A DNA stretch of 20,000 bases from IMG/VR virus record IMGVR_UViG_3300043423_000026. One strand, given 5' to 3'. The notes below the pieces were generated by a model. It was given only the letters and a program-made list of their open reading frames with translations. It searched no databases and was not told the DNA's origin. The DNA comes from an uncultured virus (IMG/VR IMGVR_UViG_3300043423_000026) (taxonomy: Duplodnaviria > Heunggongvirae > Uroviricota > Caudoviricetes > Crassvirales). This document shows, in pieces, positions 10,230-18,890 of the stretch. Within the stretch, counting starts at the first letter, position 1. Each line of letters starts with the position of its first letter. The position numbers and the translations under genes were made by a program.

Positions 10230-10673
10230 ATGAAATCAAATACAGATAACTACTTGAAATATTGGAGAGTAATACGCCAATACGTAAAAATCAAATATGG
10301 CCTAACTCAATCAGACCTTGATATTATATTTTTTCTTTACTCCGAATCGTACTTTGACAGGGATAAGTTCCTTGAGTTTGATACTATACTTGGTTGGGAT
10401 AAACAGCGCTTTGAGAAGTTGCGAAAAGCAGGTTGGATAGAAGTATTTAGACAAAGAATGGGTAACCGAAAAGCTTTGTACCAATTGTCATCAAAAGCTA
10501 AGACAATGGTTCGGTTAGTTTATAACAAACTAAACGGGGAAGAAATCCCCGTTAGTAATTCTCAGAATAGAATGTTTGCTAGAAATGTATCATACACTGA
10601 TAAAAGATACCGTGCTATGATATTAGAAATGAATGCTATTATAAAACAACAACGACATCACGCTCCTGAATAA
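10230..10673 (+). CDS. Putative winged-helix DNA-binding regulator
   Basis: YGLTQSDLDIIFFLY...RFEKLRKAGWIEVF...KALYQLSSKAK resembles MarR-like wHTH; the only plus-strand gene in the left arm. Confidence 0.65.
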   Translation: MKSNTDNYLKYWRVIRQYVKIKYGLTQSDLDIIFFLYSESYFDRDKFLEFDTILGWDKQRFEKLRKAGWIEVFRQRMGNRKALYQLSSKAKTMVRLVYNKLNGEEIPVSNSQNRMFARNVSYTDKRYRAMILEMNAIIKQQRHHAPE

Positions 10674-10902
10674 TAGTGTGAGGTTTATCCTCTATTAGCA
10701 TCGTAAATCCGTGAGACTTGTCGTAATAGATAACATCATCCGCTTTGATATAATCCACCTCTGTACCTGATGATATTACGACAGCCTTTCTGTAACGCAT
10801 TCCTTTCACATCTTCGCCTGATAACACCAAGCCTGAGTCTGTTCTTACTTCCTCGTCAATTGTTTTGACAATAATATTTTTTCCGATTGGTTTTAATCCC
10901 AT
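10639..10902 (-). CDS. groES: Co-chaperonin GroES (Cpn10)
   Basis: LKPIGKNIIV, TDSGLVLS mobile loop, VISSG, IIQERDVVVVL; near groEL. Confidence 0.9.
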   Translation of the reverse strand: MGLKPIGKNIIVKTIDEEVRTDSGLVLSGEDVKGMRYRKAVVISSGTEVDYIKADDVIYYDKSHGFTMLIEDKPHTIIQERDVVVVL

Positions 10903-11399: not shown

Positions 11400-11598
11400 A
11401 ATCTTTTGATTCGTCTTTCCAATTTAACCAAAATCCAACTCCTACAATTATGTTCATACCCATAGAAGCAATTATCTCTGTAAGGTCTTCGTATATGTTT
11501 AAACTTAGATGAACGTGACCTATCGTCCAAAAAGGAATCGATAGGTTACACGCTATCCAAATTATAGTGAATTTACAAAACCTCTTCAGTTTGCTCAT
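11383..11598 (-). CDS. Small two-TM membrane protein
   Basis: Two hydrophobic segments; overlaps the groEL stop. Confidence 0.6.
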   Translation of the reverse strand: MSKLKRFCKFTIIWIACNLSIPFWTIGHVHLSLNIYEDLTEIIASMGMNIIVGVGFWLNWKDESKDYDKRN

Positions 11599-13216
11599 AA
11601 CTACGAGCCATTGTGATTATAGCATTCGTACTCAATATCGTCACAGCAACGCTCACAGCGTTTTGTAGCGCACTTCTAGTTACCTTTAAGGGGTCTATGA
11701 CACCCATCTTAATTAAGTCGCCCATTTGGCCTGTTTTTAAGTTGTAACCTTGACCTGCCTCAATACCATCAGGATAAATATCCTTAGCTTTCAGTCCTGC
11801 ATTTGAAAGTATCTGTAAGAACGGAGCCATAAGAGCTTCGCTCAATACGCTAGCTGCTACATTTCTCTCTTCACTTGTACCATCACAAACATCGTTCACT
11901 TTCTCGCAAACGGATAGTAAAGCACTTTCTTCAAGTAAAGCTTTACCTGCACCTGGTAAGATACCTTCCTCAAGCGCTGAACGAACTGCGCAAACAGCAT
12001 CATCAACTCTATCGTATAACTCTTTCTGCTCTAAGTCTGTTTGTCCACCTACGTAGATAACACCAATTCCACCTGTTAGCGATGCAATACGCTCTAACAA
12101 GAAATCCTTGTCCACTTTCTTAGTCGCATTTTTATGAGCGTCCCATAATTGGTCTACCCTTTCTTTTATCACAGACTCATCAGAACGAACGTCTGACTTA
12201 ATGATAACAGTTTTATCTTTACTTATAATCACCTTAGAGGCGTGTCCTAAATCTCCGAAGTTAATGATACTTAAATCATCCCCTGTTTTCTCACTGAAGT
12301 AAGTAGCACCTACGCTGATAGCAATATCGTGCATAAGCTCGTGTTGCTTGTATCCAAAACTAGGAGGAGCAACAGCACATACTTTTAAATTCCCCTTCAC
12401 GCTATTAGCAGCCAAAGTATTTACAACGTTAGCATTACACGGAGAGATAATCAAAAGCTTTTTACCTTCTGTGATAATTGGTTTCAATACGTTCTCAATC
12501 TGCAAAATATTCGCAATCTCCATATCAGCAACCAACACCATAACATCATCAAGAACACACTCGTCTTTCTTTTGGTCATTGATAAACATCGAGCTTAAAT
12601 AACCTCTGTCAAATTTCAAACCTAAAGTAGTCTCAGCATACGTCTCATCGTTTTGGCTTCTCTCTACAGTTACAATACCTGTCTTACCAACATTTTTGTA
12701 AACCTCAGAGATTATCTTCCCAATCTCTCTATCGTTATTAGCAGATATACTAGCAACGTCAATAAGCATTGAAGATGAAAGTCTCTTACTCTTACGTCTT
12801 AGGTTGTCCACAACCTTATCGCTCATCTCCACCAATGCTCTAAGAACCTCCGTTCTGTTATGAGTATCTTTGATTTGGTTTAATCCACCCAATACTAAAG
12901 CCTCAGTCAAAACAATTGCAGTGGTCGTTCCATCTCCTGCATTAGTAGCCGTTCTTTCAGCAGCTTCCTTCATCATCTTAACAGCCAAGTTCTCTACAGG
13001 GTCAAACAAGTCAATACTCTTAGCAACAGTTACACCATCCTTAGTCACAGTAATTCCGTGAGTGTGATTTGGACTCTCAATAAGTACAGTATTACCTCCT
13101 GGACCTAAAGTACTTTTTACAGACTTAGCCATTTTAGCTACCCCGTTAGCTAATTTCTTTCTTCCTTTATCCTCAAAATGTAAATCTTTTGGAGAATAAC
13201 CTTGATTTTGTGTCAT
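11573..13216 (-). CDS. groEL: Chaperonin GroEL (Cpn60), phage-encoded
   Basis: TLGPGG, VTKDGVTVAK, GDGTTT, FDRGYLS, ERIASLTGG, RVDDA, GVIDPLKVTRSALQNAVSVA. Confidence 0.97.
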   Translation of the reverse strand: MTQNQGYSPKDLHFEDKGRKKLANGVAKMAKSVKSTLGPGGNTVLIESPNHTHGITVTKDGVTVAKSIDLFDPVENLAVKMMKEAAERTATNAGDGTTTAIVLTEALVLGGLNQIKDTHNRTEVLRALVEMSDKVVDNLRRKSKRLSSSMLIDVASISANNDREIGKIISEVYKNVGKTGIVTVERSQNDETYAETTLGLKFDRGYLSSMFINDQKKDECVLDDVMVLVADMEIANILQIENVLKPIITEGKKLLIISPCNANVVNTLAANSVKGNLKVCAVAPPSFGYKQHELMHDIAISVGATYFSEKTGDDLSIINFGDLGHASKVIISKDKTVIIKSDVRSDESVIKERVDQLWDAHKNATKKVDKDFLLERIASLTGGIGVIYVGGQTDLEQKELYDRVDDAVCAVRSALEEGILPGAGKALLEESALLSVCEKVNDVCDGTSEERNVAASVLSEALMAPFLQILSNAGLKAKDIYPDGIEAGQGYNLKTGQMGDLIKMGVIDPLKVTRSALQNAVSVAVTILSTNAIITMARSYEQTEEVL

Positions 13217-14395: not shown

Positions 14396-14698
14396 ATGAA
14401 AACATTGTTAAAAAAGATTGACTTAATTAACTCAATGATTGAATCGGTAGAGCTATCGGAAAATATTCCTTTGACTTATTCGGGTGGAACATTCCCGCGT
14501 TATGTAGTAATTAAACCTATTAAAGTAAAAAATCAATTTGTTACTATTGAGGCCAATATAAAAAGCTATTCGTTTATAGACGGCAAAGAGCGTTATAATA
14601 TTAATAAGGCTTCTTTAATGGCTGATGAGTATTGCAAAAAACACCTTAATTATACTTTAAACATTATTTTAAAATCATTCAAAAACTCACTTAAATAA
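14396..14698 (+). CDS. Early hypothetical protein
   Basis: 100-aa ORF, first after the promoter; leader aatcaatacattATGAAAACA. Confidence 0.75.
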   Translation: MKTLLKKIDLINSMIESVELSENIPLTYSGGTFPRYVVIKPIKVKNQFVTIEANIKSYSFIDGKERYNINKASLMADEYCKKHLNYTLNIILKSFKNSLK

Positions 14699-15049: not shown

Positions 15050-15094
15050 TATTAACGGGGGCAAAAGCCCCCAATTAAACCAATATAAAATGAA
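15042..15094 (+). repeat. Hairpin-containing gene-junction repeat, copy 1
   Basis: taaaaTAAtattaacGGGGGCaaaaGCCCCCaattaaaccaatataaaATGaa; 52/53 identical to 16387-16439. Confidence 0.95.
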
Positions 15095-16394: not shown

Positions 16395-16439
16395 TATCAA
16401 CGGGGGCAAAAGCCCCCAATTAAACCAATATAAAATGAA
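16387..16439 (+). repeat. Hairpin-containing gene-junction repeat, copy 2
   Basis: See copy 1. Confidence 0.95.
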
Positions 16440-16776: not shown

Positions 16777-16806
16777 TATCAACGGGGGCAAAAGCCCCCA
16801 ATTAAA
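16774..16806 (+). repeat. Hairpin-containing gene-junction repeat, copy 3 (partial)
   Basis: TAAtatcaacGGGGGCaaaaGCCCCCaattaaa, identical to 33 nt of copy 2. Confidence 0.95.
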
Positions 16807-17967: not shown

Positions 17968-18251
17968 AAATACACCTTAAATTTGACCACACTAAAAAAC
18001 ATTGTTTGGAGGCCTTAGATTGTCCGTATACTATAGACGAATCAAACGAACAAGTTAACAATGTTATTGAGAAAATGATTAACGCTAAAGGTATGGATAA
18101 GAAAAGCCAATTAGCTGAGCTAATCAATCAGGAACTTGACTACTCAATCATCCTATACTTGGCCACTAATTTAGTCACCAAGGAAATGGAGAAAAGAATG
18201 ATGAAAATAATGTTAAACCAATTTTTAGATGATGATGATGAACTTATTTAA
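17964..18251 (+). CDS. Hypothetical protein
   Basis: 95-aa ORF with acidic C-terminus. Confidence 0.7.
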   Translation: MKIHLKFDHTKKHCLEALDCPYTIDESNEQVNNVIEKMINAKGMDKKSQLAELINQELDYSIILYLATNLVTKEMEKRMMKIMLNQFLDDDDELI

Positions 18252-18462
18252 AGTAAACACAACGGGTTATTCTGAGGAGGATTTCTACCTACAGACTGAA
18301 CTTGAAGAGCAGGATATTATAGAGGTTATTACGCCTATAGTTAATCGAGAGCGTGATGGCTATGAAGATTACGACAACGAATTATTATTTGACGCTTTGA
18401 AAGAGCGCTATCCAAGAAAAAAGATTAAACTATATACAGAGTTTCATCTTATAACAATTTAG
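18229..18462 (+). CDS. Acidic hypothetical protein
   Basis: 77-aa D/E-rich ORF; exact start among four consecutive ATGs uncertain. Confidence 0.7.
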   Translation: MMMMNLFKVNTTGYSEEDFYLQTELEEQDIIEVITPIVNRERDGYEDYDNELLFDALKERYPRKKIKLYTEFHLITI

Positions 18463-18464
18463 AA

Positions 18465-18612
18465 TCGAGTAGTATTAAAGGAATCCTTGATTGTCGTCAA
18501 TGTAGGCCGTTGTAATGCCATTGGTTAATTCAGGTTCTACTCGAAAGGTTTAACGCCTTATTCATACTCTGAAATTACAATAAGACTGACTAATAGGAAA
18601 GACTATTTTTTA
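18465..18612 (+). ncRNA. Structured intergenic RNA with predicted pseudoknot (manA-motif-like)
   Basis: TCGAGTAG(18465-72)/CTACTCGA(18537-44) closes a multiloop with two internal hairpins; loop GTTGTAAT is complementary to ATTACAAT (18574-81); 3' AATAG-GAAAGA-CTATT hairpin followed by a T-run. Confidence 0.65.
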
Positions 18613-18635
18613 TTAACTTAAAAACAAATAAAATT

Positions 18636-18890
18636 ATGAAATATTATGATTACGATAAAGCTAAATCAATTATCGAAGAAAATAAAAATAAAGGTTTAGT
18701 AGAAGCAATTTTAGGAATGAAAGAAGATTGGAATTGGACATCTGAAACAATTTGGGATAATGGTAAATACGTTATGGTATTAGAAGAAGATACAGAAATT
18801 GCGGGTATTAGTGGTTCAACGTGGGCTACACCCGTATTAGAATTATTTTATTCAGATGAAACAAAAATAACTTTAAATTGTTACAAATAA
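18636..18890 (+). CDS. Hypothetical protein
   Basis: 84 aa; LGMKEDWNWT...GISGSTWATP. Confidence 0.8.
   Translation: MKYYDYDKAKSIIEENKNKGLVEAILGMKEDWNWTSETIWDNGKYVMVLEEDTEIAGISGSTWATPVLELFYSDETKITLNCYK

What the first reader, a model, noticed from the sequence alone, without database searches (positions are those of the whole stretch)
18465..18612. Pseudoknotted intergenic RNA (manA-like) in a Bacteroidota phage early operon
Seen: a 173-nt gap in an otherwise packed operon. It has an 8-bp closing stem; internal hairpins ATTAAAGG-aat-CCTTGAT and CAAT(gta)GGC-loop-GCCATTG; a loop GTTGTAAT complementary to ATTACAAT; a competing helix CTTATT(18557)/AATAAG(18579) that overlaps the pseudoknot strand, giving switch potential; and a final GAAAGA-loop hairpin plus T-run just before the next gene. 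Segments TGTAGGCCG, GGTTTAAC and ACTGAC..GGAAAGAC resemble my recollection of the manA orphan riboswitch candidate, which was described from marine metagenomes, Photobacterium and cyanophages. That match is unverified. Here it precedes a hypothetical gene rather than a sugar or nucleotide metabolism gene.
Basis: partly seen in the sequence, partly recalled or inferred. Interest (0 to 1): 0.7.

Follow-up and report, generated by a model that had tools for sequence, protein, structure and literature searches.

The report
New knotted small RNA in phages
The gap holds a real, intricately folded small RNA of a large phage family that is in no RNA catalogue, often sits flush against phage tRNA genes, is not the manA riboswitch, and has no known job yet.

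Summary
The structure is real, but it is not manA. Window 18464-18610 (+) is one copy of a conserved RNA of about 147 nt.

- **Family size:** 104 distinct close relatives in uncultured viral, metagenome and Flavobacteriaceae-bin contigs.
- **Covariation:** 87-90% of cells paired against 68% in shuffles. The covariation score is 0.48-0.54 against 0.15, with 0 of 500 shuffles as high.
- **Rfam:** Rfam 15 finds nothing here or in 40 related loci, manA included.
two internal hairpins and the "switch" helix are peculiar to this window.
- **Context:** neighbouring genes vary. tRNA genes start 3-6 nt after P5 in 10 of 104 members and end 3-8 nt before P1 in 4 of 104.
- **Wider family:** the 3' module occurs in at least 119 viral contigs. 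These include subfamilies with other 5' cores and the same architecture, mostly flush with tRNA-Arg(UCU).

Best reading: an autonomous, stable phage small RNA that is cut out or terminated like a tRNA. Its target is unknown. A ribozyme role is not excluded.

The parts
18465..18472 (+). P1 5' strand (TCGAGTAG). It begins 3 nt after the TAG stop codon (18460-18462) of the upstream 77-aa ORF.
   Evidence: Pairs with 18537-18544. In A3 the 7 modelled pairs are 91.6% paired, each with 5-6 standard pair types. My own parse finds a helix of 5-12 bp at this place in all 104 members.
18473..18484 (+). A-rich joining strand J1/2, ending in a conserved AAU.
   Evidence: Length varies, with a mode of 9 nt. 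The last three letters are nearly invariant.
18485..18506 (+). P2 hairpin. CCU/AGG is the lower stem, AUGU is a bulge, the upper stem has 4 bp, and the loop is UGUC (18492-18495).
   Evidence: All 7 pairs are kept in 97 of 97 rows. The two middle pairs covary: AU 69, GC 19, UA 8, CG 1 for one, and CG 46, GC 42, UA 5, AU 4 for the other.
18493..18495 (+). PK2 5' side: GUC of the P2 loop, which pairs with GAC at 18584-18586.
   Evidence: G-C in 85 rows, A-U in 12 rows and never broken in 97 rows. UUAUCG always goes with AAGAUUGAC.
18509..18516 (+). PKa 5' strand (GUUGUAAU).
   Evidence: Pairs with 18574-18581. It is 99.5% paired and 7 of 8 pairs covary. 33 distinct strand-sequence combinations are seen.
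18517..18525 (+). P3, a short variable hairpin (GCC-AUU-GGU) that branches between PKa and PKb.
   Evidence: By eye and by my parse. In other members it is capped by GNRA-type loops or is longer. Its two closing pairs hold in only 43 of 97 rows of A7, where this part is not aligned by structure, so it is weakly supported.
18529..18534 (+). PKb 5' strand (UUCAGG), 2 nt before the P1 3' strand.
   Evidence: Pairs with 18568-18573. A helix of at least 4 bp at this place is found in 99 of 104 members, with more than 50 distinct sequence pairs. In A7 the four inner pairs are about 80-90% paired, with 5-6 pair types each.
18537..18544 (+). P1 3' strand (CUACUCGA).
   Evidence: See P1 5' strand.
18545..18559 (+). 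P4, a hairpin of variable length (AAGGU-UUAAC-GCCUU).
   Evidence: Found by my parse in most members, with lengths and sequences that differ. It was not modelled or counted formally.
18568..18573 (+). PKb 3' strand (UCUGAA).
   Evidence: See PKb 5' strand.
18574..18581 (+). PKa 3' strand (AUUACAAU).
   Evidence: See PKa 5' strand.
18582..18590 (+). Conserved single strand AAGACUGAC. Its first GAC is the PK2 3' side.
   Evidence: Nearly invariant in sets that were not selected for it. Together with the P5 loop it forms the 3' module that hit at least 119 viral contigs.
18592..18607 (+). P5 hairpin: AAUAG/CUAUU with loop GAAAGA.
   Evidence: The stem is 87-88% paired and all 5 pairs covary. The loop GAAAGA is kept in most members and is UAAU in a subgroup from large contigs.
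18606..18611 (+). Run of six T directly after and overlapping the P5 3' strand. It is a likely but weak intrinsic terminator.
   Evidence: Read from the sequence. The terminator scan did not call it, because the stem has one G-C pair. 30 of 104 members have at least 4 T within 10 nt after P5.

Best explanation
Window 18464-18610 (+) encodes one member of a large, uncatalogued family of phage small RNAs of about 140-165 nt.

**Shown**
- The RNA folds into a compact knot. P1 and PKb form an H-type pseudoknot.
- Inferred from the adjoining strands rather than tested: P1 and PKb stack end to end, PKb continues into PKa across a three-way junction with P3, and the UGUC loop of P2 reaches over to pair with the strand just 3' of PKa.
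- A hairpin with a conserved GAAAGA loop closes the unit.

**Inferred**
- It is an autonomous, stable RNA rather than a regulator of the next gene.
- It is transcribed with the neighbouring early genes.
- Its 3' end is set in one of two ways. In this window the P5 hairpin plus U-run would set it. In relatives a tRNA starts 3-6 nt after P5, so RNase P cutting at the tRNA 5' end would set it.
- Where a tRNA lies upstream, tRNA 3'-end processing sets its 5' end.
- The invariant unpaired letters around the knot form a specific binding surface or pocket for a host or phage factor, probably one connected with tRNA or translation. The RNA then acts in trans.
- The target is not known.
For: **Structure**
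- A3 (65 distinct rows): 89.9% of cells paired against 68.2% in shuffles; covariation 0.543 against 0.145; 0 of 500 shuffles as high; slid controls 0.075-0.090.
- A7 (97 distinct rows): 87.0% against 68.3%; 0.482 against 0.150; 0 of 500.

**Strand**
- U-G in P2 is invariant in 97 of 97 rows, and G-U occurs in 51 rows at the end of PKa. On the other strand these would be mismatches.

**Not coding**
- No ORF of 40 aa or more lies in the gap, and no conserved ORF lies over it in relatives.

**Autonomous unit**
- The genes downstream differ: 84, 134, 65, 220 and 52 aa and others, or tRNAs.
- The upstream 77-aa gene occurs without the RNA in Flavobacterium elemo phages, where the gap to the next gene is 12 nt.
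- A phage from GenBank with a 60%-identical GroEL lacks the RNA.

**Ends flush with tRNAs**
- ARAGORN tRNAs start 3-6 nt after P5 in 10 of 104 members and end 3-8 nt before P1 in 4 of 104.
- In 37 variant members a tRNA, mostly tRNA-Arg(tct), abuts the unit: upstream in 13 and downstream in 4. In another look, 7 of 20 variant loci had an adjacent tRNA.
- A T-run follows P5 in 30 of 104 members.

**Phage-specific**
- Model R1 gave only two marginal matches (27 bits) in 150 other genomes of the family of a Polaribacter bin.
- The window itself has exactly one copy, scoring 127.8 and 126.0 bits.
Against: - No expression data exist. No RNA run holding the stretch was listed, so the transcript, its ends and its stability are all inferred.
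- Most members have no adjacent tRNA: 90 of 104 by ARAGORN.
- In about 18-46 of 104 members P5 is followed by a second hairpin without a U-run, and about 20-30 nt later by a start codon. There the RNA would stay part of an mRNA unless it is cut out.
- The window's P5 stem has a single G-C pair and was not called a terminator.
- The spacing from an upstream tRNA to P1 ranges from about 1 to about 37 nt in the variants (my reading), so no precise coupling shows on that side.
- A very strongly conserved unpaired core fits a ribozyme or a ligand sensor as well as it fits a protein-binding RNA.
- No partner was identified.
Confidence: 0.5

Rival explanations
1. It is a new class of self-cleaving or otherwise catalytic RNA. 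The knot forms an active site, and cleavage separates the upstream message or tRNA from what follows.
For: - About 35 near-invariant unpaired or tertiary letters sit around helices whose sequences have fully diverged.
- The order of strands is P1 5', pseudoknot 5', hairpin, P1 3', variable hairpin, pseudoknot 3'. From my own knowledge this resembles the nested double pseudoknot of HDV-like ribozymes.
- Distribution among related phages is sporadic and accessory, which from my own knowledge is also true of known small ribozymes.
- One member (L104) has a hammerhead type III candidate about 240 nt upstream: 36.5 bits against a gathering score of 48.5, with the core letters aligned.
Against: - No ribozyme family of Rfam matches.
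- The first P1 pair is not a conserved G-U: GC 24, AU 13, UA 10, CG 8, GU 3.
- The letters before P1 are not conserved.
- Most adjacent tRNAs in the close family lie downstream (10 against 4), which cleavage at the 5' end would not explain.
- The hammerhead neighbour is a single case among 40 loci scanned.
Confidence: 0.2
2. It is a cis-acting element of the operon. Either it is a ligand-sensing riboswitch that controls termination at P5, or it is an RNA that makes RNA polymerase resistant to termination through the untranslated or tRNA genes that follow.
For: - It always lies on the same strand as, and between, co-directional genes.
- P5 is followed by a T-run in 30 of 104 members.
- It often stands just before tRNA genes, which are untranslated.
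That is an untested lead.
Against: - The P5 stem varies freely while the core is invariant, and no conserved alternative pairing links them.
- The downstream genes share no function.
- In the window the element lies about 4 kb into the operon that starts near 14396, not at its head.
- Some members lie after a tRNA, not before one.
Confidence: 0.15
3. It is a manA riboswitch candidate (Rfam RF01745).
For: Only a recalled likeness of short segments, plus a shared marine and phage setting (PMC2864571, passages read).
Against: - There is no match to RF01745 or any other family at E up to 10 on window 18380-18700, at gathering score on the whole window, or in 40 related loci at E up to 1.
- The downstream genes are small hypothetical proteins or tRNAs, not sugar, nucleotide, chaperone or photosynthesis genes.
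Confidence: 0.01
4. It is a decoy or mimic that takes part in the phage's tRNA-based counter-defence. It would either present a tRNA-like coaxial stack (P1 of 7-8 bp on PKb of 5-6 bp) or bind a tRNA-targeting host nuclease.
For: - It lies flush with phage tRNA genes in several subfamilies, above all tRNA-Arg(tct).
- The combined length of P1 and PKb is 12-14 bp in most members. From my own knowledge this is close to the acceptor/T-arm stack of a tRNA.
- It is accessory and lies in an early-gene region.
Against: - There is no T-loop or D-loop sequence, and ARAGORN finds no tRNA in the window, so none in the element.
- The 3' strand of P1 runs on into P4, so there is no free acceptor end.
- The window phage has no tRNA gene in 20 kb.
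- No test bears on binding.
Confidence: 0.1

Closest known systems
Phage T4 small stable RNAs rnaC (species 1) and rnaD (species 2)
   Same: - They are discrete RNAs of 119-139 nt with unknown function, encoded in a phage tRNA region.
- In T4, rnaD starts 1 nt after tRNA-Arg and rnaC follows it (annotation of NC_000866). The variant subfamilies here likewise abut tRNA-Arg(tct).
   Different: - There is no detectable homology. Model R1, run with filters off, gives nothing at rnaC or rnaD; the best score in the 10-kb region is 10.3 bits, elsewhere.
- The T4 RNAs end in tRNA-like sequences (read). This RNA has none.
HDV-like self-cleaving ribozymes, including the tRNA-adjacent 'theta' ribozymes of gut phages (recalled; not read here)
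   Same: - The topology is a nested double pseudoknot, with a P1 of about 7 bp that encloses the 5' strand of the pseudoknot and a hairpin.
- A variable hairpin follows before the 3' strand of the pseudoknot.
- Both occur next to phage tRNA genes.
   Different: - This RNA has an extra helix PKb, an extra conserved hairpin P2 with its loop pseudoknot, and a 3' module.
- There is no conserved G-U at the start of P1.
- No Rfam HDV-type model matches.
- The adjacent tRNAs are mostly downstream.
manA RNA motif (RF01745; Weinberg et al. 2010, PMC2864571)
   Same: It is an orphan structured RNA from marine metagenomes and phages, with a proposed pseudoknot.
   Different: - The covariance model does not match.
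- manA lies in 5' UTRs of metabolic genes of cyanophages and gamma-proteobacteria.
- This RNA lies between small hypothetical genes or tRNAs of phages of Flavobacteriia.
GOLLD and ROOL large phage-associated RNAs (recalled; both are in Rfam)
   Same: They are orphan, highly structured RNAs of phages and prophages that, as I recall, often lie next to tRNA genes.
   Different: - They are several hundred nucleotides long; this RNA is about 147 nt.
- No Rfam match was found.
HK022 put RNAs (processive antitermination; recalled)
   Same: It is a structured RNA inside an early phage operon that acts whatever the downstream genes are.
   Different: - As I recall, put is two stem-loops near the promoter.
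- This RNA is a multi-pseudoknot unit, often flush with tRNAs, and lies 4 kb into the operon in this window.
- No test was possible.

Membership tests
manA RNA motif (RF01745) | Match to the Rfam covariance model at or near its gathering score | tested here: not met
   No hit on the whole window at gathering score. No hit on window 18380-18700 at E up to 10; only three unrelated matches of 13.7-16.1 bits appeared outside the element. No hit in 20 + 20 related loci at E up to 1.
manA RNA motif (RF01745) | Location in 5' UTRs of mannose/fructose, nucleotide-synthesis, ibpA or photosynthesis genes (PMC2864571) | tested here: not met
   The downstream gene here is an 84-aa protein of a PHROG of unknown function. 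In relatives the downstream genes are varied small ORFs or tRNAs.
manA RNA motif (RF01745) | Occurrence in marine metagenomes, T4-like cyanophages and gamma-proteobacteria | tested here: inconclusive
   The relatives are uncultured viral and metagenome contigs, plus Polaribacter and Flavobacteriaceae bins. No cyanophage or gamma-proteobacterial record was seen, but the contigs carry no taxonomy.
HDV-like ribozymes | Nested double pseudoknot (P1 with P2, a P3 hairpin inside, P4 outside) | tested here: inconclusive
   The order of strands is similar. However, an extra helix PKb splits the pseudoknot strand, and P2, PK2 and P5 have no counterpart.
HDV-like ribozymes | Conserved G at +1 forming a G-U wobble at the base of P1 (recalled feature) | tested here: not met
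   The outermost modelled P1 pair reads GC 24, AU 13, UA 10, CG 8, GU 3 and other 7.
HDV-like ribozymes | Self-cleavage at the 5' end of P1 | not testable with these tools
   This needs an in vitro transcription and cleavage assay.
T4 rnaC / rnaD | Sequence and structure homology to the T4 RNAs | tested here: not met
   R1 with filters off on NC_000866 66000-76000 gave no match at 70908-71171; the best score was 10.3 bits, elsewhere.
The family described here (working definition) | P1, P2 with UGUC loop, PKa, PKb, PK2, AAGAYUGAC and P5 in this order | tested here: met
   The window scores 127.8 bits with R1 (P1, P2, P5) and 126.0 bits with R2 (P2, PKa, PKb, P5). All pairs of P2, PKa and PK2 are present in the window row.

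The most novel reading that the evidence does not exclude
The family, with its variant subfamilies that share the UGUC-loop/GAC pseudoknot and the AAGACUGAC-hairpin module, is a new functional class of phage RNA that acts on tRNA metabolism. It could be a new self-cleaving or processing ribozyme that shapes tRNA-operon transcripts. Or it could be a knotted RNA that binds and blocks a host factor that targets tRNAs. The repeated flush placement against tRNA-Arg(UCU) and other tRNAs would then reflect function and not mere co-transcription.
Probability: 0.25. Interest if true: 0.9.

Novelty: categorically new. Interest (0 to 1): 0.75.

Why it matters
Complex folds with many invariant unpaired letters have, in the past, usually turned out to be ribozymes, riboswitches or specific protein partners. 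This one has:

- three crossing helices proven by covariation;
- more than a hundred close members, and at least 119 viral contigs that carry its 3' module;
- no entry in Rfam 15;
- a recurring place at the edge of phage tRNA genes.

It gives a well-defined, small (about 147 nt) and phylogenetically rich target for structure determination and for self-cleavage, ligand and pull-down screens.

If it acts on tRNA processing or on tRNA-directed host defences, it would add an RNA player to a field that so far knows phage tRNAs and proteins.

It may also throw light on an old puzzle: what the non-tRNA stable RNAs in phage tRNA clusters, such as T4 species 1 and 2, are for.

One caveat on novelty. 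A 2023 catalogue of 10,006 unnamed candidate structured RNAs from IMG/VR (PMC10690425, passages read) may list this family in its supplementary tables, which I could not open.

Tried and rejected
- **Single-sequence folding:** z 0.14 and 0.69, uninformative.
- **tRNA/tmRNA scan of the window:** none found.
- **blastn against GenBank phages:**
  - The 1.5-kb region gave no match.
  - The gap gave only short A/T-rich hits over the terminator and leader part, none covering the core.
  - Variant subfamily members gave none.
- **The window's own assembly** is not held. The nearest record, G001, is an 18.8-kb fragment with the identical element.
- **Relatives of the downstream 84-aa protein** (L003-L006) do not carry the element.
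- **Public RNA runs:** no RNA holder was listed. This says nothing on expression.
- **Host genomes:** R1 on 150 other genomes of the family of a Polaribacter bin gave two 27-bit matches (E about 0.006-0.008 per genome). One of them (L144) lacks the core motif, so I take both as chance.
- **Chance matches of the search patterns** were set aside:
  - L053 and L091;
  - L061, L062, L065-L067, L069 and L070;
  - about 20 of the 80 metagenome loci;
  - about 15 of the 56 new 3'-module sequences that lie in coding or unrelated DNA.
- **MAFFT alone** put P1 and PKb out of register, so I used two covariance models. Each aligns only its own nested helices. P1 is therefore best read on A3 and PKb on A7; the other helix looks weaker on each alignment (61.9% for P1 on A7, 60.1% for PKb on A3).
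- **Mismatched-partner control for PKb:** it separates only in the mean, 11.7 against 8.3 with sd 2.3; 21 of 104 exceed the 95th percentile.
- **A related GenBank podovirus (MW202828.1)** has neither the RNA nor tRNAs in the 49.9 kb searched.
- **Earlier notes of this scan:** look-ups by place and by sequence found nothing.
- **Paper searches:**
  - 'structured RNA / bacteriophage / tRNA / pseudoknot / Flavobacteri': 116 papers, 25 listed.
  - 'Cellulophaga phage / noncoding RNA': 0 papers.
  - Neither search brought up a description of this family.

Full report
**What is at the coordinates.**
- The 173-nt gap 18463-18635 lies between a 77-aa ORF (18229-18462) and an 84-aa ORF (18636-18890). 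Both are on the + strand, inside a run of small co-directional genes that starts near 14396.
- The window is phage DNA. It encodes a tail spike, an endolysin, GroEL and GroES.
- The 77-aa protein has relatives at 66% identity in 68 Flavobacterium phage records.
- Folded on its own, the gap is no more stable than shuffled sequence: z 0.14 on the + strand and 0.69 on the - strand.
- ARAGORN finds no tRNA in the window.

**Not manA and not any catalogued family.**
- Rfam 15 (4227 models) gives no match on the whole window at gathering score.
- At E up to 10 on 18380-18700 it gives only three unrelated matches of 13.7-16.1 bits, all outside the element.
- The same holds for 20 loci of close relatives and 20 loci of variant subfamilies. 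There only the neighbouring tRNAs and one hammerhead candidate score.
- Weinberg et al. 2010 (PMC2864571, passages read) place manA in 5' UTRs of mannose/fructose, nucleotide, ibpA and photosynthesis genes of cyanophages, marine metagenomes and two gamma-proteobacteria. None of this applies here.

**Relatives.**
- The element recurs just after homologues of the 77-aa gene in four IMG/VR contigs, at 77-79% nucleotide identity.
- Two core patterns then found it in 40 and 72 viral contigs.
- It was also found in 4 contigs of Polaribacter and Flavobacteriaceae bins; the other 7 genome hits are chance.
- After duplicates were removed, 104 distinct members remain.
- The window has exactly one copy, 18464-18610, scoring 127.8 bits with model R1 and 126.0 bits with R2.
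- The Flavobacterium elemo phages keep the 77-aa gene but have only a 12-nt gap after it, and no match.
- A GenBank podovirus whose GroEL is 60% identical also lacks the element.
- 150 other bacterial genomes of the family of the Polaribacter bin gave only two marginal matches.
- The RNA is therefore phage-borne and accessory.

**The fold** (window coordinates).

| Element | Coordinates | Notes |
|---|---|---|
| P1 | 18465-18472 with 18537-18544 | closing stem |
| P2 | 18485-18491 with 18496-18499 and 18504-18506 | AUGU bulge; UGUC loop |
| P3 | 18517-18525 | short variable hairpin |
| PKb | 18529-18534 with 18568-18573 | ends 2 nt before the P1 3' strand |
| P4 | 18545-18559 | variable-length hairpin |
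| PK2 | GUC 18493-18495 with GAC 18584-18586 | inside the conserved AAGACUGAC |
| P5 | 18592-18596 with 18603-18607 | GAAAGA loop; six T follow |

- P1 and PKb make an H-type pseudoknot whose helices share one continuous strand.
- PKb and PKa share the other strand and flank P3, which gives a three-way junction.
- The coaxial stacking is my inference from this strand continuity.

**Covariation evidence.**

*Alignment A3* (model R1: P1, P2, P5; 65 distinct rows):
- 89.9% of cells are paired against 68.2% in shuffles.
- The covariation score is 0.543 against 0.145; 0 of 500 shuffles reach it, and slid controls give 0.075-0.090.
- P1 is 91.6% paired, and all 7 pairs change on both sides.

*Alignment A7* (model R2: P2, PKa, PKb, P5; 97 distinct rows):

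| Helix | Result |
|---|---|
| Whole structure | 87.0% paired against 68.3%; covariation 0.482 against 0.150; 0 of 500 |
| PKa | 99.5% paired; 7 of 8 pairs covary |
| PK2 | G-C in 85 rows, A-U in 12, never broken |
| P2 | 100% paired; two pairs covary |
| PKb | four inner pairs about 80-90% paired, 5-6 pair types each |
| P5 | 87.3% paired; all 5 pairs covary |

- Each model aligns only its own nested helices. P1 therefore looks weak on A7 (61.9%) and PKb looks weak on A3 (60.1%). That is an alignment effect, and I report it as such.
- My own parse finds a P1 helix in all 104 members, and a PKb helix of at least 4 bp in 99 of 104 with more than 50 different sequence pairs.
- Invariant U-G and frequent G-U pairs fix the strand as +.
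- The invariance of the letters that I used as search patterns is partly circular. Even so, each pattern's set shows the other pattern's letters conserved.

- Confirmed: the closing stem, the loop-to-downstream pseudoknot and the GAAAGA hairpin with its T-run.
- Not conserved:
  - hairpin ATTAAAGG/CCTTGAT, whose core is kept in 3 of 97 rows;
  - hairpin CAAT..GGC/GCCATTG, kept in 13 of 97 rows;
  - the competing helix CTTATT/AATAAG, kept in 1 of 97 rows.
- I see no sign of a conserved switch.

**Context and ends.**
- The element always lies on the strand of its neighbours, and no conserved ORF covers it.
- The downstream genes vary.
- After P5, among the 104 members:
  - 30 have a T-run;
  - 10 have an ARAGORN tRNA starting 3-6 nt later (Ile, Pro, Leu, Met, Trp and others), and at least 4 more have tRNA-like starts that ARAGORN does not call;
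  - roughly 18-46 have a second G+C-rich hairpin without a T-run, followed by the usual A/T-rich leader and a start codon.
- In 4 of 104 members a tRNA (Met or Asn) ends 3-8 nt before P1.
- This flush packing with tRNAs is what one expects of a unit that tRNA-processing enzymes cut free. That step is inferred, not shown.

**A wider superfamily.**
- Of the 80 loci fetched, 18 are the close family.
- About 40 carry other 5' cores, for example ACCUUGUCGGGUGAGGUGGG or CGGAUGUCUUCGGGUGUGAAGG.
- These have the same order of P1, a UGUC-loop hairpin, PKa, PKb and the 3' module.
- This reading of the variants is by parse and by eye, not by formal counts.
- R1 scores grade from 99 bits down to about 25 bits. 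The lowest are carried by the 3' module alone.
- In 37 such members a tRNA abuts the unit upstream in 13 and downstream in 4. Fifteen of these 17 are tRNA-Arg(tct).
- T4 shows the same neighbourhood: tRNA-Arg, then rnaD 1 nt later, then rnaC. The T4 RNAs do not match the model.

**How it most likely works.**

| Reading | Confidence | Note |
|---|---|---|
| Autonomous, stable small RNA whose knotted core presents a specific surface to a factor linked to tRNA or translation | 0.5 | best reading |
| New ribozyme | 0.2 | |
| Cis-acting switch or antitermination element | 0.15 | |
| tRNA-related decoy | 0.1 | overlaps the best reading |
| manA | 0.01 | |

- The first three are alternatives. Together with manA and the remaining unknowns they make up the whole.
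- The decoy is scored as one special case of the best reading.
- The evidence for and against each is set out in the fields above.
- No expression data could be found.

**Earlier notes of this scan.**
- Searches list about 25 uncatalogued pseudoknotted RNAs in phage tRNA arrays.
- One of them lies 3-4 nt before tRNA-like genes. Another carries an antitermination proposal.
- Look-ups by sequence found no look-alike of this family, so I treat these notes as parallel leads only.

**Novelty.**
- Neither Rfam 15 nor my two paper searches hold a description of this family.
- The 2023 IMG/VR catalogue of unnamed candidates (PMC10690425, passages read) may list it in supplements that I could not see.

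Noticed in passing
window 15056-15073, 16401-16418, 16783-16800 (+): Three identical G+C-rich hairpins (CGGGGGCAAAAGCCCCCA) lie in the short gaps between + strand genes upstream of the finding; 0 are expected by chance. They may be processing sites, stabilisers or terminators of the operon.
   Followed up: partly
window 18615-18634, and several places downstream in G001 (L012-L019): An A/T-rich leader of about 20 nt just before the ATG recurs in front of several downstream genes. It is probably the phage's usual translation-start region rather than part of the RNA.
   Followed up: partly
L104:1186-1240 (+): A hammerhead type III candidate scores 36.5 bits against a gathering score of 48.5, with the core letters aligned. 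It lies about 240 nt upstream of the family member in that viral contig.
   Followed up: partly
L276, L283-L285, L306-L308, L319, L325, L328, L341 (upstream); L297, L302, L317 (downstream): The variant subfamilies of the RNA lie flush against tRNA-Arg(tct), which accounts for 15 of the 17 adjacent tRNAs among 37 members. T4 has the same neighbourhood with rnaD and rnaC.
   Followed up: partly
L122:956-1063 (+): A second, partial match (30.7 bits, 3' module only) lies about 600 nt downstream of the full copy in the same contig.
   Followed up: no
L310, L322, L332: The 3' module follows a different upstream part that holds a repeated GACTGTGGAA element. This may be another RNA that shares the module, or chance.
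   Followed up: no
L088, L093, L109, L133 (contigs of 76-119 kb): This subgroup has a 9-bp PKa, a longer P3 ending in an AAUU loop, and a P5 loop of UAAU within AUAAUU. The two loops are complementary, so they could kiss. This was not tested.
   Followed up: no
L026, L030, L031, L036, L038, L041 and others, about 25-35 nt before P1: A conserved motif TTGTTCACAC(T/C)CAT precedes the RNA in one subgroup. Part of it can pair with the P1 5' strand or form its own hairpin. It may be a promoter, a processing site or an alternative pairing.
   Followed up: no
window 10639-10902 (-) and 11573-13216 (-): The phage encodes its own GroES and GroEL. The closest GroEL in GenBank phages is 60% identical, in an uncultured podovirus.
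   Followed up: partly
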